Shown here: in pieces, positions 1 through 64,000 of the stretch
Position numbering within the stretch: the first letter of the stretch is position 1
How the letters are laid out: each line of letters opens with the position of its first letter
Source: Malacoraja senta
Taxonomy: Eukaryota
NCBI GenBank assembly: GCA_038087875.1
Contig: CM075988.1
Location: 19,532,001 to 19,596,000 of the forward strand
Reading direction: 5' to 3'
DNA: 64,000 nucleotides
Made by a program: the position numbers and the translations under genes
Notes under the pieces: model-generated
Seen by the model: only the letters and a program-made list of their open reading frames with translations
Databases searched by the model: none
Told to the model about the DNA's origin: nothing

Positions 1-1929
1 AAAGGGAAAATAGATTATGAAAGAAAACTGGCAGGGAACATAAAAACTGACTGCAAAAGTTGTTATACATATGTGAATAGAAAGAGATTAGTTAAAACAA
101 ATGTAGGTCCCTTGCAGTCAGAAACAGGTGAATTGATCATGGGGAACAAGGACATGGCAGACCAATTGAATAACTACTTTGGTTCTGTCTTCACTGTGGA
201 AGACATAAATAATCTGCCGGAAATAGCAAGGGACCTACATTTGTTTTAACTAATGGAGTTAATGAGTCAAATGAGATGGAGGAACTGAGTGAAATCCAGG
301 TTAGCCAGGAAGTGGTGTTAGGTAAAGTGAATGGATTAAAGGCCGATAAATCCCCAGGGCCAGATAGGCTGCATCCCAGAGTACTTAAGGAAGTAGCCCC
401 AGAAATAGTGGATGCATTAGTGATAATTTTTCAAAATTCCTTAGATTCTGGAGTAGTTCCTGAGGATTTGAGGGTAGCTAATGTAACCCAACTTTTTAAA
501 AAGGGAGGGAGAGAGAAAACGGGGAATTACAGACCAGTTAGTCTAACATCGGTAGTGGGGAAACTGCTAGAGTCAATTATTAAAGATGGGATAGCAGCAC
601 ATTTGGAAAGTGGTGAAATCATTGGACAAAGTCAGCATGGATTTACGAAAGGTAAATCATGTCTGACGAATCTTATAGAATTTTTCGAGGATGTAACTAG
701 TAGAGTGGATAAGGGAGAACCAGTGGATGTGTTATATCTGGACTTTCCGAAGGCTTTCGACAAGGTCCCACATAAGAGATTAGTATACAAACTTAAAGCA
801 CACGGTATTAGGGGTTCAGTATTGATGTGGATAGAGAACTGGCTGGCAAACAGGAAGCAAAGAGTAGGAGTAAACGGGTCCTTTTCAGAATGGCAGGCAG
901 TGACTAGTGGGGTACCTCAAGGCTCAGTGCTAGGACCCCAGCTATTTACAATATATATTAATGATTTGGACGAGAGAATTGAATGCAACATCTCCAAGTT
1001 TGCGGATGACACGAAGCTGGGGGGCAGTGTTAGCTGTGAGGAGAATGCTAGGAGGCTGCAAGGTGACTTGGATAGATTGGGTGAGTGGGCAAATGCATGG
1101 CAGATGCAGTATAATGTGGATAAATGTGAGGTTATCCACTTTGGTGGCAAAAATAGGAAAGTAGACTATTATCTAAATGGTGGCCGATTAGGAAAAGGGG
1201 AGATGCAACGAGACCTGGGTGTCATGGTACACCAGTCATTGAAAGTAGGCATGCAGGTGCAGCAGGCAGTGAAGAAAGCGAATGGTATGTTAGCATTCAT
1301 AGCAAAAGGATTTGAGTATAGGAGCAGGGAGGTTCTACTGCAGTTGTACAGGGTCTTGGTGAGACGACACCTGGAGTATTGCGTACAGTTTTGGGCTCCA
1401 AATCTGAGGAAAGACATTCTTGCCATAGAGGGAGTACAGAGAAGGTTCACCAGACTGATTCCTGGGATGTCAGGACTTTCATATGAAGAAAGACTGGATA
1501 GACTCGGCTTGTACTCGCTAGAATTTAGCCGATTGAGGGGGGATCTTATAGAAACTTACAACATTCTTAAGGGATTGGACAGGCTAGATGCAGGAAGATT
1601 GTTCCCGATGTTGGGGAAGTCTAGGACAAGGGGTCACAGTTTAAGTATAAAGGGGAAATCCTTTAGGACCGAGATGAGAAAAACATTTTTCACACAGATA
1701 GTGGTGAATCTCTGGAACTCTCTGCCACAGAAGGTAGTTGAGGCCAGTTCATTGGCTATATTTAAGAGGGAGATAGATGTGGCCCTTGTGGCTAAAGAGA
1801 TCAGGGGGTATGGAGAGAAGGCAGGTACAGGATACTGAGTTGGATGATCAGCCATGATCATATTGAATGGCGGTGCAGGCTCGAAGGGCCGAATGGCCTA
1901 CTCCTGCACCTATTTTCTATGTTTCTATG
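1..1929 (+). mobile_element. CR1-clade LINE, 3' part (young; runs off the window start)
   Basis: Long RT ORF followed by the CR1 3' UTR (GATCAGCCATGATCATATTGAATGGCGG...GGCCGAATGGCCTACTCCTGCACC) and a (TTTCTATG)n tail at about 1914-1929. Confidence 0.95.
276..1838 (+). CDS. CR1 ORF2 reverse transcriptase, C-terminal 520 aa
   Basis: Motifs KSPGPD, NYRPVSLTSVVGK, QHGF, DFxKAFDKVPH, GVPQGSVLGP, FADDTKL, LEYCVQFW, VVNLWNSLP. Confidence 0.93.
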   Translation: MEELSEIQVSQEVVLGKVNGLKADKSPGPDRLHPRVLKEVAPEIVDALVIIFQNSLDSGVVPEDLRVANVTQLFKKGGREKTGNYRPVSLTSVVGKLLESIIKDGIAAHLESGEIIGQSQHGFTKGKSCLTNLIEFFEDVTSRVDKGEPVDVLYLDFPKAFDKVPHKRLVYKLKAHGIRGSVLMWIENWLANRKQRVGVNGSFSEWQAVTSGVPQGSVLGPQLFTIYINDLDERIECNISKFADDTKLGGSVSCEENARRLQGDLDRLGEWANAWQMQYNVDKCEVIHFGGKNRKVDYYLNGGRLGKGEMQRDLGVMVHQSLKVGMQVQQAVKKANGMLAFIAKGFEYRSREVLLQLYRVLVRRHLEYCVQFWAPNLRKDILAIEGVQRRFTRLIPGMSGLSYEERLDRLGLYSLEFSRLRGDLIETYNILKGLDRLDAGRLFPMLGKSRTRGHSLSIKGKSFRTEMRKTFFTQIVVNLWNSLPQKVVEASSLAIFKREIDVALVAKEIRGYGEKAGTGY

Positions 1930-23792: not shown

Positions 23793-24190
23793 ACTTTAGT
23801 GCCCAGTCATTCATTTTGAAAGTCTTCAATATTAACGAGATGACTGAAAATAGAAGACATCTAATTTGATTCAGTGCTCTACATGGGGCGTCATCACCTG
23901 TGGCACCTTCACCAGTTCTGAGCATTGAGGAAAACAGGTCCATAACTGTCTAATGACTGGCTTGGTCAAGTGCCCCAAATCTCCAGTTTCCTTCTTCCAT
24001 GACTCTCAGTCTGAAGAAGGGTCTCGACCCGAAACATCACCTATTCCTTTTCTTCAGAGATGCTGCCTGACCCGTTGAGTTACTCACGCAATTTGTGTCT
24101 ATTTCCGCCCCAAATACTCCAGTGAAGGGGGTGTCCCTCTCCATCTTCCCATTGCCAGCGTCAGGATTACTGAGATCAGAACATGGGGTC

Positions 24191-24336
24191 TTCTTCTTCC
24201 TCGTGTCCGGCCATCTTCTATATCATGTCTTTCCGGTTGGTTGCAGAATTCGCTACTTCAGTCAGTCACTGTGGTACAGTTTCTGCCGTCAGCATTGCCC
24301 CGGGATGCACCACGTGGAGGCTTCTGCTTGCATCCC
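24191..24336 (-). mobile_element. Short ribozyme-headed retro-insertion with (GAA)n tail
   Basis: Perfect TSD AGAACATGGGGTC at 24178-24190 and 24337-24349; 3' end GAAGATGGCCGGACACGAGGAAGAAGAA. Confidence 0.85.
24243..24336 (-). ncRNA. HDV-like (CPEB3-like) self-cleaving ribozyme
   Basis: P1 GGGAUGC/GCAUCCC, P2 GCAGAA/UUCUGC, P3 GCC/GGU, L3 UCCACGU, P1.1 GG, GCAA junction, P4 UGCU/AGUA with long insert, J4/2 GCGAA (putative catalytic C at 24252). Confidence 0.85.
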
Positions 24337-24754
24337 AGAACATGGGGTCATCTAACTAAGTACATCTAAAGACAAGTTGATGAAAGTGAATAACTCCAAA
24401 GTAATTAAGCAGGAGCCAAATAAGCCCCTGAAAATAAATCACAGAAACTACCCACTCTACGGGGTGAGGTTTTGCAGAGATTACTTATATTTTGGGCCCT
24501 TCCTAGCAATCTCCTTCAGTGAGAAATTTCAATCTACTGTCCACTCTCGCATTAAAAACAAGGTAGAAACAGAATAAGTTACTCAAACAGCATAGCTCAT
24601 GATTAGTGGAAAGTCTGACAATATTCAAGTTCACTCATCAGGAGTGTGTGGAGTTTGCAGAAGTGAAAGGTGACTAGATTTGCAGAAACTCAAGTTAATG
24701 TGTTTCACGTCTTCCATTCATTTTCAGAGCTGCCTTCTTAAGAAGGTGGTGATG

Positions 24755-26269: not shown

Positions 26270-29200
26270 CACCATATGATTCCAAAAAGACGACAAATGG
26301 AGACCAACTCGTTAAGAATTGGTCTGATTTTTCTATTAGGAGGAATCGCATTTCTTCAAGATGTGCGGTGTCCAACATGCTTGCGATCCACATTTTAAGC
26401 GTTGGTATTGGTGTATTTTTCCTAAATTTAAGTATTAGTTATTTTGCTATTATTAAACCATAATTAAAAAATAAGTGTTGTGATAAGTTCAATTTATTCC
26501 CATCTTCCATTACTCCAAATATAATCATTTCAGTATTAGGTTCCATTCTTATCTTAAATAGTTTTGTATATATATCTAAAATATCACTCCAAAATCTATA
26601 AAGTTTTATGCAGGAAACAAAAGAGTGTGTTATAGTTGCGTTTTGGGATAGACATTTATCACAAATGGGGGATATATTTGGATATATTCAAATCTTGAAT
26701 TTATTCAATCTTGTTTTTGAATAATATAATCTATGTAAAATTTTAAATTGAATTAGATTATGTCTTGCATTAATCGAACATTTGTGTATATATATCAAAT
26801 ACTTTTCCCATGTAACCTTCGTAATTTTTATCATTAATTCCCGTTCCCACTCTTCTCTAAGTACCTCTGTCAATGGTAAATCTATATTTAAAATACTATT
26901 ATATAAATATGATATTAATTTTTGTGAGTCAGCTTTAATATTCATTGCTTCTTCCAATAAGTCAAAAGTTAAAGGCCTGTCTCACGAGTCTGCGGTCATT
27001 GGCGGCGAAACAGGAACTATCTACCGCTCCTGAGCCGCCAGAGACCGCGGGCTCGGTCAAACGCACAATTCCGTGGCCGTGCGGCGTTGTTCCCAAAAAT
27101 ATGTTCCTACCGCACAGTCGCCGCCAGTGAGGCATGAGTGCGGCACGGCCGCCGCCACAGCCGCCGCCAGTGAGGCACGAGCGCCGTGAGTCGAACCTGC
27201 ACTGCCACAGCCTCCGCCAGTGAGGCACGGGTGCGGCACGGCCGCCGCCACAGCCGCCGCCAGTGAGGTACGTGTGCGGCACAGCCGCCGACAGTGAGGT
27301 ACGTGTGCGGCACGGCCGCCGCCACAGCCCCGCGATCCGAAAGACGTCATCAGCCAAAACCGCAAGCTCGTTGAACCGGCCGTACTTGGCCCCCCTGCGC
27401 AGCATCCGTGCGGCGCTCTCGTGGTTGCCGTGCGGTCCCCTCTTCCGGCGACGCCGCGCTTCACCGCCAACGACCGCAAACCCGTGGGACAGAGCCTTTA
27501 CTTTTTGATATCCTTGTATGTATTTCTTCATGAAATTGCAAATCTGAAGATATTTAAAATATTGGTTATTTTTCAATTTAAATTTTAATTGTAATTGTTG
27601 GAATGATAATAGATTTCCCATTTCATACATATCCCCGATCCTTTTAATTCATAAACTCTCCCATTGGTTATATGTCTTATCAATAAGAGATGGTTTAAAT
27701 AAAGGGTTATTCGCTATAGGCGTTAACAATGATAAATTCCTTAATTTTAAGGGTAATTTTATTTGTTTCCAAATTCTTATTGTATCGTGTATAATTGGGT
27801 TCTTCTTATATATTGTGTTGTTCAGTTTTTTCGGAGAGAAGAAGATCGTTCCTATATTACAAGGGAAACAATCCTCTTTCTTCATTCTTATCCATTCTGT
27901 CTGTTGGGTAGAACTGTCCAACCAATAAATTATATTCTTAATATGCACTGCCCAATTATAATACAAAAAAATTCAGGAGTGAGAGTCCCCCGGCATCTTT
28001 TGATTTACATAAATGTTTTTTTTTTAATTCTATGTGATCTGTAATCCCAAATAAAATTGGTAATATTAGAGTCTAATTTTTTTAAGAAGTATTTTGGTAT
28101 ATATAATGGTATAGATTGAAATAGGTATAATAATTGTGGTAGAAATATCATTTTTATAGCATTTATTCTACCTATTAATGATAAAGAAAGTGTTTTCCAA
28201 AATTTAATCAACATATTGAGTTTATTTAATAAAGGTATAAAATTAGCGTTGAATAATGCTTTATATTTTCTCGTAATTTGAATACCCAAATATTTAAATT
28301 TTTCTATTTCAATTTTAAAGGGGAACTTCAGTAAGTGTGTGGATTCTTGAGGTTTTAACGTCATAATTTCACTTTTATTCCAGTTTATTCTATATCCAGA
28401 AAAGGACCCGAATTCCTCTATTAAATTTAATAAATTTGGTATACTCGTTTGTGACTTTGTAATATATAAAACTATATCATCTGCATATAATGAAATTTTA
28501 TTATTTGAGTCCCTAGTGTTGTAGCCACGAATATTCGGATGAATTCTTATACTTTCAGCCAAAGGCTCTATCATAAGGGCAAATAGCAGGGGTGATAACG
28601 CACATCCCTGCCTATTGCCCCTCGATAATTGAAATTTTTGAGATAACATATTATTAGTTAATATTCTTGCCATCGGTTTATCATATAATAGTTTTACCCA
28701 TGTAATAAAATTCTCTCCCATATTAAATTTTTGCAGTACTTTATATAAGTATTGCCACTCTACCTGATCAAATACTTTCTCTGCGTCCAGAGAAATAATT
28801 TATATATCTTCTTCCTCCCTTTTATGTGAGTACATTATGTTAAACAGGCGTCTCAAATTATTAAATGAGTATCTTTTAGGTATAAACCCCGTTTGATCAG
28901 GATTTATCAGTTTACTAATATATTTGCTTAATCTTCTTGCTAAAGTCTTTGCTAAAATTTTCTGGTCTGTATTTAAAAGTGATATAGCTCTATATGAGCC
29001 CGGATCGTCTAAATCTTTATCTTTTTTTGGAATAAGTGTAATAGTTGATTCTGCTAATGTTTCAGATAGTTTATTTTCTTTAAAAGCATGAGTATATAAA
29101 TTAAATAAATAAGGAGTCGTTATCTCATGAAATTTTTTATAAAATTCATTACTAAAACCATCTGGTCCCGGTGTTTTACCATTTTTCAACGATTTTATTG

Positions 29201-30608
29201 TTTCACCTATTTCTTCAATTGTAATTTGAGCTCCAAGTTCCTCTTGTTCCAAAAGATCAAGTTTTGGAAGATTACAGTTATCTAAATTTTTTTTAATTTT
29301 ACTATCTTCTATTTTAGTTTTAGATGTATATAAATTTTGATAAAACTGTGCAAATCTATTGTTAATATCTTTAGGTAGTATTAATAATTCACCTTTCTCT
29401 GATTTAATTTTAGTTATAGTATTTTCCTTTTCTTGTTTTTTCAATTGACGAGCTAAAAGCTTATATGGTTTGTCACCAAACTCAAAATGTTCCTGTTTTG
29501 TAATTTGGAATAGTCTTATTACTCTTGCCGATAAAATTTGATTAAGTTTAAATTTCAGTAACATTATCTTATTATGTTTATCTGTAGTGGAATCTTTGGC
29601 ATTATCTAACTCTAACTGTCTAATTTCTTGTTCTAACAGCATTTGTTCTGTCTTATTCTTTTTATTTTGAAAAATTTGATATGAAATTATAATTCCTCTA
29701 ATAAATGCCTTAAAAGTTTCCCATAATAAAGAAGGCGAATTACCTGGTGTGTCAGTTGTCTCAAAAAAATATTTCATTTGTTGTTTTAAGTATTGATAAC
29801 CTTGTAAGTCATTTAAAATATGTGTATTAAACCTCCCAAAAAAGTTTTTACCCGGCATTCCCTCAAATTTTACTGAAAATGTCAACGGAGAGTGATCAGA
29901 AATACTACTAATGTGGTATGTTGGATTAATTGTATATGGCATTAATTTCATATCCACTAAAAAATAATCAATTCTTGAATAAGTTTTATGTACCGAAGAG
30001 TAAAACGAGTATTCCCTTCCTACTGGATTAGCAGATCTCCATACATCTGTTATATTAGTATTTTTTATATATGTATTTAGAAGTTCACTAGTCTTAGATT
30101 TTAAATTACTCCTCCTTTGTTTTACTGATTTGTCTAAGTATGGATCTAAAACACAGTTGAAGTCCCCCCCTATTATCACATTTTGGTAATTAGACTCTAA
30201 TATTATATCTATAATTTTATCAAAAAATTTGGGGTTGTCAAAATTCGGAGCGTAAATATTTATCATAGTTAGTGGGGTTGCATAAATTTCTCCCGAAACT
30301 ATAATATACCTTCCCTCTTTATCTGATATAGTATTCTTTAATTTGAAAGGTATACCTTTTCGAATAAGAATAGCCGTACCTCTAGATTTAGAAGTAAATG
30401 ACGAATAGTATGTTTGACCTATCCACTTCGCTTTGAATCTCATTTGTGTTTGTTGTTTCATGTGGGTTTCCTGTAAAAACATTATGTCGCTTTTCAAAGA
30501 TTTTAGTTGAGCAAAAATGTTACCCCTCTTTATTGGTTCATTGGCACCCCTTATACTCCAACTACAGAATGTGATTCCTCCATTCTTTATTTGTCTATCG
30601 TCTTGCAT
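26270..30608 (-). pseudogene. L1 ORF2 (APE endonuclease, RT, C-terminal Cys-His domain), frameshifted and MITE-interrupted
   Basis: FLQETH, NIYAPN, GGDFN, SRIDY, SDHSP, PGPDGF, RQGCALSPLLF, LYADD, ICDKC; broken into ORFs 28800-30608, 28005-28721, 27649-27966, 26688-26957. Confidence 0.93.
26972..27497. mobile_element. PIF/Harbinger-type MITE nested in L1 ORF2
   Basis: TTA TSD (26969-26971, 27498-27500); ends AAGGCCTGTCTCACG / CGTGGGACAGAGCCT; very GC-rich with tandem GCCGCCAGTGAGGCACG..GTGCGGCAC repeats. Confidence 0.9.
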
Positions 30609-31766
30609 TATATATCAAAATAGTATTCCTGAATCATATGGTGCAAGCAAATACCTCAGAGTTCTGGGTGTTGGGTGGTCATCCCAAGTTTTTAGATTTA
30701 TATTACATCTCCTTCTTGAAAAGAACCTTAGATAAAGAAAGAAAAAATGTGATATAAAGTTGAATACAAAAAAAAAAAGCAAATACAAGTCTTTATAGTG
30801 ATTTTTTTTTTAAAGTGATGTTAAGGTATCTAAGAAAAGATACCTTAAAGACAGGTAGCCACCTAAGGTGGCGAAAAATTTATGGACCTCCGTTGATGTT
30901 GTTTTACATTGAGCTCCAATCCCTTATTAAAACCTCATAAAAAGCTACAGACCGTTTCATATCTTGTTTGTTCCTATTTAAATTTATCAAACTAGCAACA
31001 GTGAAAACCGAAAAGATTCAGAAAAAGATATAAAAAATAAAAAACAAATATAAAACACAGCATATTCTCAGTTCTATAAATATATATGCCTTTCCAATTT
31101 ATCTAACCTTAATCTAGTCTAAACTTTACCATAAATGTCCACCCAAGATTCTTACGTAATAACCCGTTCTTTAACTACCATACAAGCAGGTACCAAGGGG
31201 TTAAACAAAACCTCATTCCTGGATCTTTTCCAGATTTATGCTGCACCTAACTCCTTCCCACACAAGAAAAGTACGTTAGTAATGTTATAAACATTTTGGT
31301 TAGTTACTATTTATAAGCATATATCATTTATAAGTATATATCAGTAATATTAGTTCATTTCCCTTTTTAAATATATAAAATCATAATTTATACACTCCCA
31401 ATCTCCTTCCCCATCTCATAGTTTATTCATGATTTGTTCATATTTACTACATACATTCACGAGTAATTAGTATTATTAAATTTTTTAAATTAATTGGTTA
31501 ATTATAATTAGAATATAATGGTTAGATATTTTCTTAAATCAACAGTTTTTATATTTCAATTAGTATTATCTCGTTCCATGTCCATTATACATTCCCTCAT
31601 TACGTCTGTATCTTCAACGTCCTTTTGTTTATCTTTGAGCTTTTCATTCAAGGTGAAACATGGACAATGCTCTCGAATACACATTCCAGGCAGATAAGCT
31701 TGGTAACTGTCTGGAAAAATCCGCCATCTTAACCAGTTCAGAACTCTATCTTAAAAGTTAAAAAGT

Positions 31767-32852
31767 TCAGTCTTCTTGCTTGTCGACATCTTCCCCCGAT
31801 GTTTTCTTTACGATATCTTCTGCGTACTTAAAAGCTTTTTCGGGATCCGTAAATGAGCGCTCAGTGCCATTATGAGTAATCTTCATTTTTGCTGGGTAGA
31901 CCACCCCATATCTGACATGGGGTATTCCTCTCAAAATGTTACTTGTCTGAGTAAACAAGTTCCTTCTCTGGACGACCTCCGGAGGATAATCACGGAAAAA
32001 TTGAATATTATCCCCACGATATGTCGGCTTCTCCCCATGAATAATCTTATTCAATATAAATTCCACTGAAGAGATGTCGAGAAATTTCACAATTATCTGT
32101 CTTGGAGGAGCATTTCTGTCTCTTGAAACCCGTCCAACTCGGTGAACGATATCTATTCTTGATTCTTCCGGCAGTTTAAAAACATCTTTGAGTAAGTCAG
32201 CAACGAAAGTACGTGTTTGAGATCCATGTCCCTCTCGCCCTTCTCTTACTCCAACAATTCTCAAATTCTGCCTTCTCGATCTCGCTTCCAAGTCCAGACA
32301 TTTGTCAGTCATTCTTGCAAGTTTTTCTTCTTCAGATTTCTTTGATTTTTTCAAACTCTTTATTTCCGTGATCATCTCTTTCATGTCTTTTTCCATCTCT
32401 TCCATTCTCTCATCAATATCTCCCATATTATCATTTACATCAGTAAATTTCTTATTATAGTCATTTTCGATTCTAGCACATTCTGACTGAAATTTTTTAT
32501 CAAACTCCTTATGTTGCTTCTTCAGCTCCTTTAACTCACCACAAGCACTGTCAATTTTTTGAGAAATTATCTCCATATTAGTCTCCATACTCTGCTTATT
32601 ACTCTCCATATTAGATTCCATACTCTGCATCTTTTCCAGTGTCGTATTGATTGTAGCAGTTATATCTAAAAGCATTTGCTTTACCTCCTTCTCCTTCTTT
32701 TCTCCTTTTGCAGCCATTTCAAACACAGATCCTTGGCTGTAAGACTCTTCTTCTGATCCTTCTTCTGTCGTTTGCAGAGTATCCAAAACTTTCTCAAGCT
32801 GGAGACTTATAGTGATCTTCTTAGGTGCTCGTGAGCTTATCTCTCTTCTCAT
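31767..32852 (-). CDS. L1 ORF1 protein (coiled coil plus RRM/CTD), intact 361 aa
   Basis: Heptad-rich N-half, DLEARSRRQNLRIVGVREG, HRVG, PRQIIVKF, FFRDY, YPAKMKI. Confidence 0.93.
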   Translation of the reverse strand: MRREISSRAPKKITISLQLEKVLDTLQTTEEGSEEESYSQGSVFEMAAKGEKKEKEVKQMLLDITATINTTLEKMQSMESNMESNKQSMETNMEIISQKIDSACGELKELKKQHKEFDKKFQSECARIENDYNKKFTDVNDNMGDIDERMEEMEKDMKEMITEIKSLKKSKKSEEEKLARMTDKCLDLEARSRRQNLRIVGVREGREGHGSQTRTFVADLLKDVFKLPEESRIDIVHRVGRVSRDRNAPPRQIIVKFLDISSVEFILNKIIHGEKPTYRGDNIQFFRDYPPEVVQRRNLFTQTSNILRGIPHVRYGVVYPAKMKITHNGTERSFTDPEKAFKYAEDIVKKTSGEDVDKQED

Positions 32853-37984: not shown

Positions 37985-38760
37985 TAGACTGTAATTGTAA
38001 AACTGCAGCACTGTAACACAGCAGCACTGTAACACTGTAACACAGCAGCACAGTAACACTGCAGCACTACAGCATTGTAACACTGCAGCACTACAGCATT
38101 GTAACACAGCAGCACTGTAACACTGCAGCACTGCAACACTACAGCACTGTAACACTGTAACACTACAGCATTGTAACACTGTAACACTACAGCATTGTAA
38201 CACTGTAACACTGTAACACTACAGCATTGTAACACTGCAGCATTGTAACACAGCAGCATTGTAACACTGTAACACTGCAGCATTGTAACACTGTAACACT
38301 GTAACACTACAGCATTGTAACACTGCAGCATTGTAACACAGCAGCACTGTAACACTGCAGCACTGCAACACTACAGCACTGTAACACTGCAGCACTGTAA
38401 AGGGCCTGTCCCACTGTACGAGGTAATTCAAGAGTTCTCCCGAGTTTCCCCTGATTCGAACTCGGAGAATTACGGTAATAGCCGTTCGTAGGTACTCGGG
38501 GTTCTCGGGGAAATTTTTCACACTGTTGAAAAAATTTCACGAGCTTACCGCGTTTCCCGAGTACCTGCCGTTAGCGTTACGAGCCGCTAAGAGACGTCCC
38601 GAGCTCCGACGTACCCGCTACGTACATTCTACGTACTTACCACGAGTTTGATTTTTTTTAAACTCGGGAGAGCTCTTGGGTAAACTTGTATAGTGGGACA
38701 GGCCCTTAACACTGCAGCAGTGTAACACAGCAGCACTGTAACACTACAGGACTGTAACAC
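37985..38760. repeat. 8-bp unit satellite (CTGTAACA / CTGCAGCA variants)
   Basis: Tandem array visible directly; interrupted by a MITE. Confidence 0.95.
38401..38706. mobile_element. PIF/Harbinger-type MITE
   Basis: Perfect 15-bp TIR AGGGCCTGTCCCACT / AGTGGGACAGGCCCT and TAA TSD (38398-38400, 38707-38709). Confidence 0.92.
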
Positions 38761-40189
38761 TATATTCTGCACTCTCGTATTTTTTTCATTGTCCTAACTG
38801 TTGTACTTGATTGTACTCATGTCTGGTGTGATTTGACTGACTATCACAAAAACCAATGTGTATGGCTTGATTGTACTTGTATATGGCATGATTTGATTTG
38901 ACTGGATAGTAAGCAATACAGTTTTTTTTGCTGTATCACGGCGCAGGTGACAATAATAAGCCAATACCAATACTTACTGCATCAAGCTTTTTGAAAGGTA
39001 ACGCCAGAACTATTGAGATGGTTGGAACTTTAAACAGTTAACAATAAATGCTGGATGCACATTATCCAGCAGAGAGACTCATCAGACTTGAAAGGTACAT
39101 TCATCTATTGAACAGCCATCCATCATCATACAAAGGATGACCATAACAATACTGTCAGCCCTTCCCTTCCAACTCTTCCTCATCTTCTCTGACTGAATAA
39201 ATTATTCAAATTCCCATCCTTCATAATTAATCAGAACAACCACATGTGTAAGTGTGCCATGTTTTTGGTAATTAAATACCATTCATCAATGATTTTAAAC
39301 ATCCCCCGTCCACCTTGCCCCTTCAAAATAAATACTATTCAACAGTCTGATTACAGCTGTATAGATTAGCAAGAATATGTTGCTGAAATTAATTATCATT
39401 CATAAACTTGATACTGAGGGAACAATTTGAATGGAATATTTCACCTCTGAGCAGAACACTGGTGAGAAATTGTCCCGCGGGTTTATTTATTTCAAAGCAA
39501 ATATATTAGAAAGAAAAAGTGAAGCTCTTTATATTTACTCATGAGCAGTGCCTACTGATTTATTTGTATCTGTCCATTGTGAATTAAATGTCTTTATTTA
39601 TTACAGGTGTGGATCTGCTCAATGTACTATTGCCGAGATATAATACAACAATGGGACATGGGAGGAAAACCAGAGCACCTGGAGGAAACCCACATGGTTA
39701 CAGGGAGAATGTGCAAACTCCTCTTAGAAAGTACCCGAGGTCAGGATCGAACTAAGGTCTCAGATGGGGCTCTGCCAGCTGCGTCACTGTGCCTGTTTAG
39801 TATCAGTTTACCAAGGGTTAAGTACATTCTTGGTTCAGATTTCGCTACAGTCTAAGAAATACTTTCCTATATTAGTTTGACAGTAGATTTGAATAATGTA
39901 AACTCAGATCTGGTCATTTGTACTGAATTACTAATACGTCGATGTTATGTCCATTTTTAGATGTAGTAATTATATTCCAAGTTACTAATTTTCAATATAG
40001 AGACAAAAGCATTAAATGGACCATTTTTCTTTTTAACAAATTGCATTTTAAAATACTGTTTAATTTTGCCGACAAGGGAAATAATAATTTGTTTAGTATT
40101 GATGTGGTGCAGATTTCAGGAAAATGCACCATTCTACAATTTGATCCTCAGTTAGAGGAGATATGTTGTACAATGAAAACATGTCAGTG

Positions 40190-40347
40190 TGCATGTACAC
40201 ATGTATGCGCACACATGCACATGCATACACACATATGCGCACATGTACTGTACATGCACATATGCACACACGCAGGCACACACATACATGCATACATACG
40301 CACACAAGCACGCACACACTATGCACACATACGTACACAAGCACGCA
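40190..40347. repeat. Degenerate CA/purine-pyrimidine microsatellite
   Basis: Direct inspection. Confidence 0.85.
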
Positions 40348-53071: not shown

Positions 53072-53263
53072 TTAATTAAATGTAATCTTAAAAGTAAAAT
53101 GATCTCCGAATTGGAAACATTTGAGTGTTGCCTTTACAAGGATGTTGCCAGGACGAGAGTGACTGAGCTCTAGGGAGAGGTTGAGCAGGCTAGGACTCTG
53201 TTCCTTGGAGCGCAGGAAGATGAGGGGTGATCTTCTAGAGGTGTACAAAATCATGAGAGGAAT

Positions 53264-53454
53264 CTTCTTCTCTCGTGTCCATCTTCCATGTTTCGAATGT
53301 TGACATCGTTGTTATCATCCGTCCTGAAAAGGACACAAGCTTCTTCAATCAGTGGGAGCCATCACTTGTTGCAATAGATGATGGTGGAAGCAGAATTGGC
53401 TCAGGATACTTCCAGTTTGCAGCCCCGCGACGTGGACGCTTCTGCTACGGGGCC
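53264..53454 (-). mobile_element. Second short ribozyme-headed retro-insertion with (GAA)n tail
   Basis: Interrupts CR1; decayed TSD ATGAGAGGAAT / TTGATAGAAAT (8 of 11 match); tail GAAGATGGACACGAGAGAAGAAG shared with 24191-24336. Confidence 0.8.
53389..53454 (-). ncRNA. HDV-like (CPEB3-like) ribozyme, possibly partly decayed
   Basis: P1 GGCCCC/GGGGCU (G-U at cleavage site), P2 AGCAGAA/UUCUGCU, P3 GCG/CGC, L3 UCCACGU, single-G P1.1, imperfect P4, J4/2 GCCAA. Confidence 0.75.
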
Positions 53455-55459
53455 TTGATAGAAATAGATCGTGTAGACACATCTCACCCAGAGTAGGGGA
53501 ATCGAGAACCAGAGGACACAGGTTTAAGGTTAAAGGGATGGGAAATTTAATAGGAACATGAGGGATAACGTTTTCACACATTGAGTGTATGGAACAAGCT
53601 GCTGGAGGAGGTAATTGAGGCAGGGACAATCACAACATTTAAGAAACATGGTTAGGACAGGTTTAGAGGGATATGGGCCAAGCGCAGGCAGGTGGGACTA
53701 GTGTGGATGGGACATGTTGGCCAGTGTGGAGAAGTTGGGCTGCTTCCACGCTATATAACATTATGACTCTATGAGTGCAGGCGATCCTTCCCTGTTCACA
53801 CATTGCCGTCATCATGACTGTCAACAACACAACAGCAAAATCACAATGTTGTCATGATTTGATGAATCTCATGACATGGTTCATGTGGGTTGGGTTTTTG
53901 GGGGTCATTCGGGGTCAATTTGTGATTCCCCAACCCGACTGGAAAAACAGCCTTAAAAATCACCTCACAAATGTTGCTTCTTTAATAGACTGTGGCGAGA
54001 ATGTAATGTGTCACTTTGCGCTAACCTTTATGCTCTCTCTGAGTCAATGATGGGAGAAATTATGTTGAGGAGTAGGAAGTAACTGGGCCATTGAACAAAT
54101 ATTTAATGTCTGTTCTGACAGAAGTAGCATGTCAGACTGCAGGGGTGAAAGGATTAGTGAGAAAAAGGAACGTTAAGTAAGTAAAATTAGAATGAAAAAG
54201 ATTGAGAAACATCACGCTTGCTTTCATCATTCAGGGAGCTGAATGTAGAAGTTGGGACATTATCTTACAGTTGCCCACAATGTGGCAGAGCCTGCATTTG
54301 GAATCTTATGTTCAATTTTGGTCACTCTATTATTGGATGGTATTATGATAGAAAGACTGCAAAGAAAATGTTGCCAAGGCACAAAGGCCTGAGCTATTGG
54401 GAGAAGTTGGGCAGACTAGGACTTTATTCCTTGGAGCGCAGGAGGCTGAGGGGTGATCTTATAAAGGTGTATAATGTCATAAGGGGAATGGATATGGTGA
54501 GTGTACAATCTTTTACCCAGAGTAGATGGATCAAGAACTAGAGGGCATAGGTTTAAGGAGAAAGGAAAAAGATTGCAGAGGAATTTTGTCAGAGAGTGGT
54601 TAGTATATGGAATGAGTTACTGGAGGAAATAGTTGAGGGAGATACAAGAACTGTAGATGCTGGTTTACAAAACAAAGCACAAAGTACTGGAGTAGCATCA
54701 GTGGATCAGGCAGGATCTCTGGTGAACATGGACAGATGACATTTTTGGTCAGGACCCTTCTGAGGCAGGTACGATAACCGCATTTAAAAGACATTTGGAC
54801 AGGTACAAGGGTAAGATAGGTATGGGGTCAAATGTAAACCAATGGGACTAGCTTAAATGGGGCATCCTGGGCTGTGTGGACGAGTTGGGTGAAAGGCCCT
54901 GTCTCCGTGTTGTGACTCAATTGCTCCAGAGGATCAAAAGCTGACAATCATAAAGACCTGAAAGCCTACATACTTGCAGTTTAAAATGAGTGACATTAGT
55001 GAAAGTGGAATCTTCCAGTACATGCACTGGCACATGGCAAAATGACTCCACTATTCAAGATGGGGAGATGGGGTTGGGGTGGGGGGGGGGGGGGTTAAGG
55101 GGGAGTGGGGGGGGGGGAATAAAGAGCCAAGGACTGGATTGATTGTGAAGAAGCATTTGAATGATCATTAAATAATGCGGCACTTAGAAATCACAATATG
55201 ATTAAGGTGATATTAGACTTGGATTGGTGGCGCTGTTTAATTCAGGTACCTTCCTTTCTCCAGTGAAAATTAGAGAGCTGTAGATGCCTGAAGTCTGAAT
55301 CATAATCATTAAAATGCTGGAAGCACTCAGAAAGCCAGTCCACATCTCTGGAAAAAGGAATACAGTTATGGTTTCTCGTCTGAGATTCTTCAACAGGCCT
55401 TTGGGCTGAAATATTAATTCTGCTTCTCTCTCTCCAGTGGGCGACAAATCGACACAGAT

Positions 55460-63458: not shown

Positions 63459-63820
63459 AGGTACACAAAAATAGGCAACGTTTCGGGCCGAAACCCTTCT
63501 TCTTCGTTTGAAGAAGGATTTCGGCCCGAAACGTTGCCTATTTCCTTCGCTCCATAGATGCTGCTGCACCCGCTGAGTTTCTCCAGCATTTTTGTGTACC
63601 TTCGATTTTCCAGCATCTGCAGTTCCTTCTTTAACAAGTTTATAACCATACTTGGCACTTGGCACATCAAACATGGTCATAGGTAGACAAAAATGCTGGA
63701 GAAACTCAGCGGGTGAGGCAGCATCTATGGAGCGAAAGAAATAGGCGAAGTTTCGGGTCGTGACCCTTCTTCAGACTGATTTGGGGGTGGGGGGAAGAAG
63801 AAAGGAAGAGGCGGAGACAG
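63459..63820. mobile_element. Cluster of Penelope-derived terminal repeats, including an inverted pair
   Basis: TTTCGGGCCGAAACCCTTCTTC facing GAAGAAGGATTTCGGCCCGAAACG; another copy at 63681-63780. Confidence 0.75.
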
Positions 63821-64000
63821 TGGGCTGTGGGAGAGCTGGGGAGGGGGAAAAAAGAGAAAGCAGGGACATTGACTTCTCCAATTTTAGGTAGTCCCTGCTT
63901 TCTCCTTCTTTTCCCTACCCTTCCCAGCTCTCCCACGGCCCACTGTCTCCTGCCTCTTCCTTTCTTCTTCCCCCGTCCCCCCCCCCCACCCCCACATCAG

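What the first reader, a model, noticed from the sequence alone, without database searches (positions are those of the whole stretch)
53389..53454. Primary-sequence similarity to the mammalian CPEB3 ribozyme
As I recall it, the CPEB3 intronic ribozyme contains AGCAGAAGCGUUCACGUCGC and ends CGAAUUCUGCUG. This element reads AGCAGAAGCGUCCACGUCGC...CCAAUUCUGCU, and the 24.2-kb copy has GCAGAA...CGAAUUCUGC. P2 and P3 are constrained by pairing rather than by sequence, so sharing them suggests common descent. Inference: such mobile elements could be relatives of the element that was domesticated as the CPEB3 ribozyme. The comparison relies on memory and needs verification.
Basis: partly seen in the sequence, partly recalled or inferred. 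Interest (0 to 1): 0.8.

Follow-up and report, generated by a model that had tools for sequence, protein, structure and literature searches.

The report
CPEB3-type ribozyme heads jumping genes
A self-cutting RNA motif almost identical in sequence to the one in the mammalian CPEB3 gene sits at the very front of a family of jumping genes in this genome, which points to where the mammalian ribozyme may have come from.

Summary
Window 53454..53389 (minus strand) is a complete HDV-like double-pseudoknot ribozyme. It matches only Rfam's mammalian CPEB3_ribozyme model: 33.5 bits, against a cut-off of 35. It forms the first 66 nt of a 192-nt retroposon (53454..53263) with a GGACACGA(GAA)n tail and target-site duplications. 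The genome holds hundreds of copies, and they begin exactly at the predicted cleavage site. Nine of ten better-preserved copies pass the Rfam cut-off.

This short element is an internally deleted derivative of a ~3.1-kb LINE found in the same genome. That LINE has a single endonuclease/reverse-transcriptase ORF and carries the same 5' ribozyme and the same 3' end. A sister LINE and further short families carry ribozymes scoring 37-64 bits. Metagenome contigs hold three more, scoring 55.6-66.5 bits.

Between them these ribozymes reproduce the CPEB3 consensus P1, P2, P3, L3, J1/4, J4/2 and, in one family, the P4 stems. The same helices covary freely among the families. Common descent is therefore much more likely than convergence.

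Not shown: self-cleavage itself, and that the mammalian ribozyme was domesticated from such a LINE. No mammalian or other vertebrate genomes could be searched.

The parts
53263..53454 (-). Whole 192-nt non-autonomous retroposon copy ('SINE-1'), an internally deleted derivative of 'LINE-B'. It lies inside an older interspersed repeat. This copy is diverged: 16 differences from the majority of 30 copies.
   Evidence: In one search, matches start at query positions 21-23 in 35 of 39 other copies, and position 22 is G 53454.
53389..53454 (-). HDV-like (CPEB3-type) ribozyme. The predicted cleavage site is immediately 5' of G 53454.
   Evidence: RF00622 33.5 bits. The unconstrained MFE fold of a sister copy recovers P1 and P3.
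53449..53454 (-). P1 5' strand GGCCCC, which pairs with 53426..53421 (GGGGCU). The helix is 6 bp, with G.U at the cleavage site.
53440..53446 (-). P2 5' strand AGCAGAA, which pairs with 53395..53389 (UUCUGCU). It is identical to the Rfam CPEB3 consensus.
53427..53439 (-). P3 (GCG/CGC) enclosing L3 UCCACGU. The CPEB3 consensus has UUCACGU.
53421..53426 (-). P1 3' strand GGGGCU. The next two bases, 53420-53419, are GC. The family majority has GG there, which would pair with the CC of L3 to form P1.1, so this copy has a weakened P1.1.
53400..53418 (-). Short, weak P4 region AAACUGGAAGUAUCCUGAG
   Evidence: constrained fold
53396..53399 (-). J4/2: predicted catalytic C (53399) followed by CAA. The family majority has C-UAA and the CPEB3 consensus has C-GAA.
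   Evidence: by position in the Rfam alignment. Catalysis was not tested.
53389..53395 (-). P2 3' strand UUCUGCU
53263..53280 (-). 3' end GGACACGAGAGAAGAAGA, the motif shared with the LINE-B 3' end, plus the (GAA)n tail.
53455..53464 (-). Upstream target-site duplication TTTCTATCAA (degenerate)
   Evidence: It matches 53262..53253 at 7 of 10 positions (hand count).
53253..53262 (-). Downstream target-site duplication TTCCTCTCAT
24189..24336 (-). Second short family ('SINE-2'), 148 nt. It consists of a ribozyme, a short body and the tail GGACACGAGGAAGAAGAAGA.
24242..24336 (-). SINE-2 ribozyme. P1 is GGGAUGC/GCAUCCC (7 bp). P3 is GCC/GGU here and GCC/GGC in the family. L3 is UCCACGU. P4 is long (~45 nt). 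The predicted catalytic C is 24252, followed by GAA and then UUCUGC.
   Evidence: (20.2 bits)
24337..24347 (-). Upstream TSD CCCCATGTTCT
24178..24188 (-). Downstream TSD CCCCATGTTCT (exact)

Best explanation
The flagged 66 nt are the 5' self-cleaving ribozyme of a retroposon. The fold is an HDV-like nested double pseudoknot (P1, P1.1, P2, P3, P4) with a catalytic C in J4/2.

The 192-nt element is an internally deleted copy of a ~3.1-kb LINE. That LINE has a single ORF encoding an apurinic-type endonuclease plus reverse transcriptase, which is an RTE-like architecture.

Inferred life cycle:
- The element is transcribed, probably as part of longer host or read-through transcripts.
- The ribozyme cuts just 5' of its own first G and so defines the RNA's 5' end.
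- The LINE protein recognises the shared 3' end ..GACACGA(GAA)n and copies the RNA into a nicked target. This gives insertions that start exactly at G1, end in the (GAA)n tail and are flanked by 8-12-bp duplications.

This ribozyme, its relatives in several LINE and short-element families of the genome, and those on metagenome contigs form one sequence family with the mammalian CPEB3 intronic ribozyme, by common descent.

Shown: anatomy, copy structure, the parent LINE, sequence and structure similarity, and covariation. Inferred: cleavage, mobilisation in trans, and homology.
For: Fold and covariation:
- The unconstrained MFE fold recovers P1 and P3 in both short families.
- Across 12 ribozymes of 5 types, 97.3% of P1/P2/P3 cells pair, against 41-56% with partners slid by 1-3 columns. 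Five of 17 pairs change on both sides.

Mobile element:
- One search scored 40 of 1982 first-look candidates, and 35 of the 39 other copies begin at query positions 21-23. Position 22 is G1.
- In the 30-copy alignment, 26 begin GGC and 4 have A or T at position 1.
- A crude script finds TSDs abutting G1 and the tail in 22 of 30 copies of each family.
- Exact-pattern counts are 574 short-P4 and 206 long-P4 ribozymes, with 0 in reversed-pattern controls.
- Contigs of three runs from other coded organisms cover only the element, with divergent flanks starting at G1 and after the tail.

Parent LINE:
- L105 begins with the SINE-1 ribozyme and 5' body and runs in frame into an endonuclease domain.
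- Its 3' end in L107 matches the last 37 nt of SINE-1 at 89% identity.
- The copy is flanked by a TTGATAAACA duplication.

Sister LINE-A:
- Its 984-aa ORF holds Exo_endo_phos and RVT_1 domains.
- Relatives at 45-63% identity are named in lancelet, sea urchin, fish, lizard and insects.

CPEB3 likeness, Rfam RF00622 with cut-off 35 bits:
- SINE-1: 9 of 10 copies score 35.1-41.8 bits.
- LINE-A: 10 of 10 score 40.7-64.2 bits.
- Types C, D, E and F: 8 of 8 score 37-59.7 bits.
- Metagenome types: 5 of 5 score 55.6-66.5 bits.
- Genome-wide, 39 of 59 scored candidates are over the cut-off, and 0 of 14 control genomes ring.
- Other HDV-like families are absent, apart from one 26.3-bit HDV-F-prausnitzii match.
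- Type D is collinear with the consensus, including the P4 stems CAGAUUC/GAAUCUG, with only a 1-nt insertion.
Against: - No cleavage assay was done and there is no RNA 5'-end evidence. The runs labelled 'RNA?' are guesses and are held as contigs.
- The window copy itself is a decayed relic: 33.5 bits, below the cut-off, with a G>C change in P1.1 and 16 differences from the majority.
- SINE-1 has a 6-bp P1, one pair shorter than the CPEB3 consensus and LINE-A.
- Active-site sequences of HDV-like ribozymes are known to converge (PMC3774820).
- No mammalian, tetrapod or other vertebrate genome could be searched, so no intermediates link this family to the CPEB3 intron.
- The LINE clade was not placed by phylogeny.
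Confidence: 0.8

Rival explanations
1. Convergence. These are genuine HDV-like retrotransposon ribozymes, but their likeness to CPEB3 arises because few sequences can fill the active site, not because of shared ancestry.
For: Eickbush et al. 2013 concluded that R2 ribozymes 'converged' on HDV-like active-site sequences, in discord with R2 phylogeny (PMC3774820 section 19, passages read). P3, L3, J1/4 and J4/2, a large part of the shared sequence, lie at or near the active site.
Against: - Identity extends to helices that are free to vary and do vary within this family.
- P1 GGGGGCC/GGCCCCU is exact in the metagenome types M1 and M2 and in type D.
- P2 AGCAGAA/UUCUGCU is exact in SINE-1 and in M1-M3.
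- The P4 stems are shared in type D.
- The L089 ribozyme is identical at 52 of 61 aligned positions.
- Unrelated HDV-like Rfam models do not match, apart from one 26.3-bit HDV-F-prausnitzii match to a SINE-2 copy.
Confidence: 0.1
2. The ribozymes are homologous, but the transfer went the other way or was independent. A LINE lineage captured a host intronic ribozyme, or both inherited it from a third source such as a deltavirus-like RNA, so CPEB3 is not a domesticated LINE end.
For: Nothing here fixes the direction. Ribozyme modules are regarded as interchangeable among mobile RNAs (PMC7761336, concluding remarks, passages read).
Against: - The ribozyme is present in at least eight element families of this genome (LINE-A, LINE-B/SINE-1, SINE-2 and types C-F) and three types on metagenome contigs.
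- It always sits at the element's 5' terminus.
- The LINE protein family is spread across animals.
- The CPEB3 ribozyme is reported only from mammals (PMC8233481).
- A single insertion into an intron is the simpler event.
Confidence: 0.1
3. The conserved 5' module is kept for another role, such as an internal promoter, translation start or protein binding site, and does not self-cleave in vivo. The exact 5' ends would then reflect transcription start sites.
For: - No cleavage data exist.
- In L1Tc the same 77 nt serve as both promoter and ribozyme (PMC3383444, abstract seen).
- SINE-1 has an unusual 6-bp P1 and a weak P4.
Against: - All elements of the HDV fold are present, with compensatory changes in P1 and P2.
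- The C-N-A-A junction is conserved.
- The 5' ends coincide to the base with the predicted cleavage site in families whose P1 sequences differ.
- No tRNA-, 5S- or 7SL-like head that would supply a Pol III promoter was found.
Confidence: 0.1

Closest known systems
Mammalian CPEB3 intronic ribozyme (Rfam RF00622)
   Same: It has the same fold and nearly the same sequence. P2, P3 and AAUUCUGCU are identical in the window copy. In sister families P1, L3 (UUCACGU), J1/4 (GU), J4/2 (CGAA) and the P4 stems also match. The length is the same: the consensus is 67 nt, SINE-1 is 66 nt and type D is 68 nt.
   Different: It is not a single-copy intronic element of the CPEB3 gene. Here it is the 5' terminus of multi-copy retroposons with tails and TSDs. 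SINE-1 has a 6-bp P1, L3 UCCACGU with a two-pair P1.1, and a different, weaker P4. The window copy scores 1.5 bits under the Rfam cut-off.
HDV-like ribozymes at the 5' ends of non-LTR retrotransposons (R2, RTE, R4/Dong, L1Tc; drz-Agam-2 of Anopheles RTE)
   Same: The position and presumed role are the same: cleavage at the element's 5' junction, releasing the RNA from a co-transcript (PMC3774820 discussion; PMC10274809). The parent here is an endonuclease/reverse-transcriptase LINE with a single ORF.
   Different: Those ribozymes are not reported to resemble CPEB3 in primary sequence. In my searches of the held library, none describes a CPEB3-type sequence in a LINE. The key papers, Ruminski 2011 and Webb & Luptak 2011, are not held, so this rests partly on recall.
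L1Tc/NARTc pair of Trypanosoma cruzi and R2 'SIDE' internal-deletion elements
   Same: An autonomous LINE and its short non-autonomous derivative share the same 5' ribozyme (PMC3383444 abstract). This parallels LINE-B and SINE-1. That R2 SIDEs are internal-deletion derivatives is recalled, not read here.
   Different: They belong to different LINE clades and hosts. Here the short elements far outnumber full-length LINE 5' ends: 574+206 against 14 exact-pattern matches.
Minimal HDV-like / theta ribozymes lacking P4
   Same: Type F here (~53 nt; L116-L119) has P1, P2, P3, L3 and J4/2 but only about 5 nt in place of P4.
   Different: Theta ribozymes are found in gut phages next to tRNAs (PMC10879173, abstract). 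Type F sits in a retroposon of a 1.94-Gb eukaryotic genome.

Membership tests
HDV-like self-cleaving ribozymes | Nested double pseudoknot: P1 enclosing P3, P2 crossing P1, P4 between P1 and P2-3', and P1.1 between L3 and J1/4 | tested here: met
   The MFE fold recovers P1 and P3. P1/P2/P3 are 97.3% paired, against 41-56% in slid controls, with 5 of 17 pairs changed on both sides. P1.1 (CC with GG) was read from the alignments. It is weakened in the window copy.
HDV-like self-cleaving ribozymes | Catalytic cytosine in J4/2 followed by N-A-A before the P2 3' strand | tested here: met
   C-(C/U/G/A)-A-A is present in all types. In the window it is C 53399.
HDV-like self-cleaving ribozymes | Site-specific self-cleavage 5' of the first P1 nucleotide | not testable with these tools
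   The support is indirect only: genomic copies begin at that nucleotide.
Rfam CPEB3_ribozyme (RF00622) | Score at or above the gathering threshold of 35 bits | tested here: inconclusive
   The window copy scores 33.5 bits and the 24.2-kb copy 20.2 bits, both below the cut-off. By contrast, 9 of 10 sister SINE-1 copies, 10 of 10 LINE-A copies, 8 of 8 type C-F copies and 5 of 5 metagenome loci are above it.
Rfam CPEB3_ribozyme (RF00622) | Single-copy element in an intron of the CPEB3 gene, orthologous across mammals | tested here: not met
   It is a multi-copy dispersed element with TSDs and a tail. It is therefore a sequence relative, not an orthologue.
Non-LTR retrotransposon and its non-autonomous derivative | Target-site duplications, a 3' simple-repeat tail, and many dispersed copies | tested here: met
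Non-LTR retrotransposon and its non-autonomous derivative | An autonomous partner encoding endonuclease and reverse transcriptase and sharing the 5' and 3' ends | tested here: met
   The LINE-B 5' end is in L105 and its 3' end in L107. The sister LINE-A ORF has Exo_endo_phos and RVT_1 domains. Mobilisation in trans is inferred.
RTE clade of LINEs | Placement in the RTE clade by reverse-transcriptase phylogeny | not tested
   Only the architecture fits: ~3.1 kb, one ~1000-aa ORF, no ORF1, short UTRs and a simple-repeat tail. No reference set was available.
Classical SINE | A Pol III-type head derived from tRNA, 7SL or 5S | tested here: not met
   No tRNA was found, and no small-RNA family appeared in the Rfam E-value scan of 53300-53550. 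The head is the LINE's ribozyme.

The most novel reading that the evidence does not exclude
The mammalian CPEB3 ribozyme is the domesticated 5' ribozyme of an RTE-like LINE of this clade, inserted into the CPEB3 intron in an early mammalian ancestor. The clade still exists in other animals as a diversified family of LINEs and short derivatives. It therefore supplies the outgroups that CPEB3 studies lack, together with a natural record of how every helix of this ribozyme can change.
Probability: 0.6. Interest if true: 0.85.

Novelty: new member of a known kind. Interest (0 to 1): 0.8.

Why it matters
The origin of the CPEB3 ribozyme is an open question. It is the only HDV-like ribozyme known in mammals and has been implicated in memory. 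[quoted passage not shown]

A living retrotransposon family with the same sequence would do four things:
- It would give a concrete and testable origin: exaptation of a LINE 5' end.
- It would provide outgroups for ancestral reconstruction.
- It would offer a natural series of variants for studying the fold. These include 6- and 7-bp P1 helices, one- and two-pair P1.1, swapped P2 pairs, and P4 ranging from 45 nt to none.
- It would warn annotators that RF00622 hits outside mammals may be transposon copies.

Tried and rejected
- Patterns meant to find a third family or the LINE partner by excluding SINE-specific bases found nothing useful. In hindsight the reasons are clear. The parent LINE shares the SINE's first ~150 nt, LINE-A has L3 TTCACGT, and its 3' end reads AGACACGA rather than GGACACGA.
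- The LINEs inside the window are not the partner. They are an L1-like element at 26.9-32.9 kb and an RT fragment at 276-1838 with a CR1-like 3' end by recall, and their 3' ends differ.
- Two pattern counts returned 0 because I mis-set the spacer at 10-12 nt instead of 9. One search is the corrected count, with 14 matches.
- The metagenome records could not be extended or searched. As a result, the type M3 context beyond 600 nt and the source organism of these contigs remain unknown.
- Reads: the only raw-read run, X22, laid nothing, so it is no test. The three 'RNA?' runs are guesses held as contigs, so they say nothing about expression or cleavage. They only confirm the element's boundaries.
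- Earlier-findings look-ups gave nothing on this genome or sequence.
- The 800 nt downstream of types C, D and F showed no endonuclease ORF. One type D copy is a ~255-nt short element with the TSD TAGTTGT.
- Papers not held: Webb & Luptak 2011 and Ruminski 2011.

Full report
**1. Observation**

The feature lies on the minus strand. Window 53454..53389 reads GGCCCCGUAGCAGAAGCGUCCACGUCGCGGGGCUGCAAACUGGAAGUAUCCUGAGCCAAUUCUGCU.

At gathering thresholds Rfam finds nothing in the window. An E-value scan of 53300-53550 returns one meaningful match, RF00622 'Mammalian CPEB3 ribozyme'. It covers 53389-53466(-) at 33.5 bits against a cut-off of 35, with E 1.6e-7 and 4.1e-5 for the whole window.

No HDV, drz or other HDV-like family appears even at E<=10.

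The 24.2-kb copy, 24242-24347(-), matches the same model weakly (20.2 bits, E 0.95).

**2. What the 66 nt belong to**

A search of the window's own genome (1.94 Gb, 6182 contigs) with 216 nt around the feature gave 1982 first-look candidates. Of these, 40 were scored, at 88-91% identity for all but the window's own copy. Among the 39 other copies, 35 start at query positions 21-23. Position 22 is G 53454, the first base of helix P1.

Aligned, 30 copies form a ~190-nt element:
- It begins GGCCCCAUAGCAGAAGCGUCCACGUCGCGGGGCUGG.
- It ends GGACACGAAAGAAGAAGA.
- The flanks are unrelated apart from short direct repeats.
- A crude script finds a duplication abutting G1 and the tail in 22 of 30 copies. 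L009/L010 are one duplicated locus.

The window copy spans 53454..53263. It has a degenerate duplication (7 of 10 positions) and 16 differences from the majority. It lies inside an older interspersed repeat.

The 24.2-kb copy belongs to a second family, SINE-2:
- There were 400 first-look candidates, of which 40 were scored.
- It has the same tail motif and an exact 11-bp duplication, CCCCATGTTCT.
- Its P1 (GGGAUGC/GCAUCCC) and P3 (GCC/GGC) differ from SINE-1, and its P4 is ~45 nt long.
- Its P2, L3 and J4/2 are the same as in SINE-1.

Exact-pattern counts in the genome are 574 ribozymes with short P4 and 206 with long P4. The reversed-pattern controls gave 0.

Neither a tRNA nor any small-RNA head is present, so these are not classical SINEs.

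**3. The parent LINE**

A pattern allowing any P1, P3 and P4 but fixing P2, L3 and AATTCTGCT found 8 loci on metagenome contigs, which represent three ribozyme types. It found none in viral contigs.

In types M1 and M2 the ribozyme lies about 200 nt upstream of an endonuclease reading frame with the motifs ..CDILCIQETH.. and ..IGDFNSQS...

Using 90 residues of that frame as a probe, the window's genome gave 150 matches. The top 13 are 52-57% identical, and some lie in open frames of up to 1014 aa.

LINE-A (L091) has these features:
- A 5' ribozyme.
- A 984-aa frame with Exo_endo_phos, Exo_endo_phos_2 and RVT_1 domains.
- A 3' end reading ..AAAGACACGAAAAGAAGAA.
- Relatives at 45-63% identity named in Branchiostoma, Strongylocentrotus, Pogonophryne, Anolis, psyllids, moths and crabs. 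The best Atlas cluster is a chordate RT cluster.

Of the 16 LINE loci inspected, 10 hold a complete ribozyme. Six of those begin GGGGATC directly after unrelated flanks.

LINE-B (L105) is the decisive one:
- It starts (G)GCCCCATAGCAGAAGC.. and continues through the SINE-1 body.
- That body includes ATGGCTCCCAC.., which is the start of the LINE's ORF.
- It runs in frame into the endonuclease domain.
- Its 3' end (L107) reads ..AACATTTGAAACATAAGATGATGGACACGAAAGAAGA. This matches the last 37 nt of SINE-1 at 89% identity.
- The whole ~3.1-kb copy is flanked by TTGATAAACA.

SINE-1 is thus the LINE's first ~155 nt joined to its last ~37 nt. This is the same relation as in internally deleted derivatives of other LINEs.

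I call the LINE 'RTE-like' from architecture only. No phylogeny was run.

**4. Ribozyme anatomy and covariation**

The segments, read, are in the order P1-5' | J1/2 | P2-5' | P3 | L3 | P3' | P1-3' | J1/4 | P4 | J4/2 | P2-3'.

| Type | Segments |
|---|---|
| Rfam CPEB3 consensus | GGGGGCC \| Ac \| aGCAGAA \| GCG \| UUCACGU \| CGC \| GGCCCCU \| GU \| CAGauucUGgugaauCUG \| CGAA \| UUCUGCU |
| M3 (L089) | GGGGGUC \| AC \| AGCAGAA \| GCG \| UUCACGU \| CGC \| GACCCCU \| GU \| 30-nt P4 \| CAAA \| UUCUGCU |
| M2 (L085) | GGGGGCC \| AU \| AGCAGAA \| GCG \| UCCACGU \| CGC \| GGCCCCU \| GU \| .. \| CUAA \| UUCUGCU |
| LINE-A | GGGGAUC \| AA \| GGUAGAA \| GCG \| UUCACGU \| CGC \| GAUCCCU \| GU \| CAAGUAAU-AUCACCAA-AUUACUUG \| CGAA \| UUCUACC |
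| SINE-1 / LINE-B | GGCCCC \| AU \| AGCAGAA \| GCG \| UCCACGU \| CGC \| GGGGCU \| GG \| weak P4 \| CUAA \| UUCUGCU |
| SINE-2 | GGGAUGC \| A \| AGCAGAA \| GCC \| UCCACGU \| GGC \| GCAUCCC \| GG \| 45-nt P4 \| CCAA \| UUCUGC |

Further types came from the genome-wide RF00622 search:
- **Type C:** P1 as in M3, with P2 GUAGAA/UUCUAC.
- **Type D:** P1 as in CPEB3, P2 AGCAGGA/UCCUGCU and L3 UUCUCGU. Across three decayed copies, the P4 strands read CAGAUUC and GAAUCUG, the same as the CPEB3 consensus.
- **Type E:** P2 GAAGGA/UCCUUC.
- **Type F:** no P4, about 53 nt in all.

On a 12-sequence alignment of five types, 97.3% of P1/P2/P3 cells pair, against 41-56% when partners are slid. Five of 17 pairs change on both sides, three in P1 and two in P2. 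SINE-2 was left out of that count because its 1-nt J1/2 shifts the P1 register in the MAFFT alignment. Its P1 and P3 pair perfectly by direct reading and in the MFE fold.

**5. How like CPEB3, and is it more than convergence?**

Rfam scores against the 35-bit cut-off:

| Group | Result |
|---|---|
| SINE-1 | 9 of 10 copies at 35.1-41.8 bits; one at 29.5 |
| SINE-2 | 9 of 10 detected at 20.3-30 bits |
| LINE-A | 10 of 10 at 40.7-64.2 bits |
| Types C-F | 8 of 8 at 37-59.7 bits |
| Metagenome types | 5 of 5 at 55.6-66.5 bits |
| Genome-wide | 39 of 59 scored candidates over the cut-off |
| Control genomes | 0 of 14 ring |

Part of each score comes from 11 flank positions of the model, which are random here.

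For L089, my hand count on the printed alignment gives 52 identical positions of 61 aligned. Eight more are the two sides of 4 pairs that remain paired, and 1 is a mismatch. Type D aligns to the whole model with a single 1-nt insertion in the P4 loop.

The documented rival is convergence at the active site (PMC3774820, section 19). That could explain L3, P3 and J4/2. It does not readily explain verbatim P1, P2 and P4 stems, because these helices demonstrably drift within the family. Every helix of the CPEB3 consensus occurs verbatim in at least one family here. The CPEB3 sequence therefore lies inside this family's cloud of variation. I put homology at about 0.8-0.85.

**6. What is not shown**

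- **Cleavage:** none of this tests catalysis.
- **Expression:** the SRA index finds near-identical SINE-1 in runs of six coded organisms from 12 studies. Contigs of three of those runs cover exactly the element, with divergent flanks at G1 and after the tail. Their RNA status is a guess, and contigs cannot show RNA ends. The one raw-read run laid nothing.
- **Direction and timing** of any domestication: no mammalian or other vertebrate genome could be searched.
- **Host organism:** From recall only, its common repeats look like those of cartilaginous fishes. I treat it as a non-mammalian animal, unverified.

**7. Literature**

In the held library I found no report of CPEB3-type sequences in transposons or outside mammals.
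- Reviews place HDV-like ribozymes at the 5' ends of R2, RTE and other LINEs (passages).
- Webb & Luptak 2011 and Ruminski 2011 are not held and might bear on novelty.
- 'MamRTE1' occurs as a repeat name in 15 papers on mammals (listing only). That it denotes an ancient RTE-type LINE family in mammals is my recollection; the listing does not say so.

**8. Verdict**

The element is a ribozyme-headed, internally deleted LINE derivative. That is a known kind of system, but it belongs to the same sequence family as the mammalian CPEB3 ribozyme, which appears to be unreported. Its value lies in the evolutionary link and in the outgroups it offers.

Noticed in passing
L091 (G000:C8:933700-938200, minus strand; oriented positions ~385-530) and L100: Two LINE-A copies carry 4-6 tandem repeats of a 26-nt unit, GATCAAGGTAGAAGCGTTCACGTCGC, ahead of the complete ribozyme. 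The unit comprises the P1-3'/P1-5' junction through P3. Rfam sees these as partial matches of 25-27 bits. They could arise from template switching at the 5' end during reverse transcription, but this is unexplained.
   Followed up: partly
L116-L119 (G000:C13:8596050-8596174 and others): Type F is a ~53-nt CPEB3-like ribozyme with no P4 helix, only UUUCA between J1/4 and the catalytic C. It scores 37-43.7 bits. It would be a 'minimal' HDV-like ribozyme in a large eukaryotic genome.
   Followed up: partly
All ribozyme types except LINE-A and M3: The bases directly after the P2 3' strand are ACCAC(C) in families whose helices differ. This short conserved motif has no known role. It could be looked for after mammalian CPEB3 ribozymes.
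   Followed up: no
L112 + L120 (G000:C3:83739860-83740768, minus strand): The type D ribozyme heads another short element of ~255 nt. It ends ..GACATGAAAAAAAAAAGAA and is flanked by TAGTTGT on both sides.
   Followed up: partly
window 26962-32852 (-): An L1-like LINE. One ORF has a weak Transposase_22 match. Broken ORFs with Exo_endo_phos and RVT_1 domains follow it. Its AT-rich 3' region is unrelated to the ribozyme elements.
   Followed up: partly
window 276-1838 (+): A 520-aa RVT_1 open frame of another LINE. Its 3' end reads ..GGCCTACTCCTGCACCTATTTTCTATGTTTCTATG, which I recall as CR1-like. The very abundant repeat that the window's SINE-1 copy interrupts looks to me like the 3' part of the same kind of element. 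I did not compare the two.
   Followed up: no
window 63772-64000 (both strands); also 40165-40330 and 38047-38327: Long purine- or pyrimidine-rich, imperfectly palindromic low-complexity tracts draw many sub-threshold plant and animal microRNA models in the E-value scan. These look like composition artefacts.
   Followed up: no
L089 (metagenome contig Ga0210059_1000457, 8231-9500): The most CPEB3-like ribozyme found (66.5 bits) has no reading frame in the 600 nt downstream. Its contig (51.6 kb) could not be read further, so its element type and organism are unknown.
   Followed up: partly
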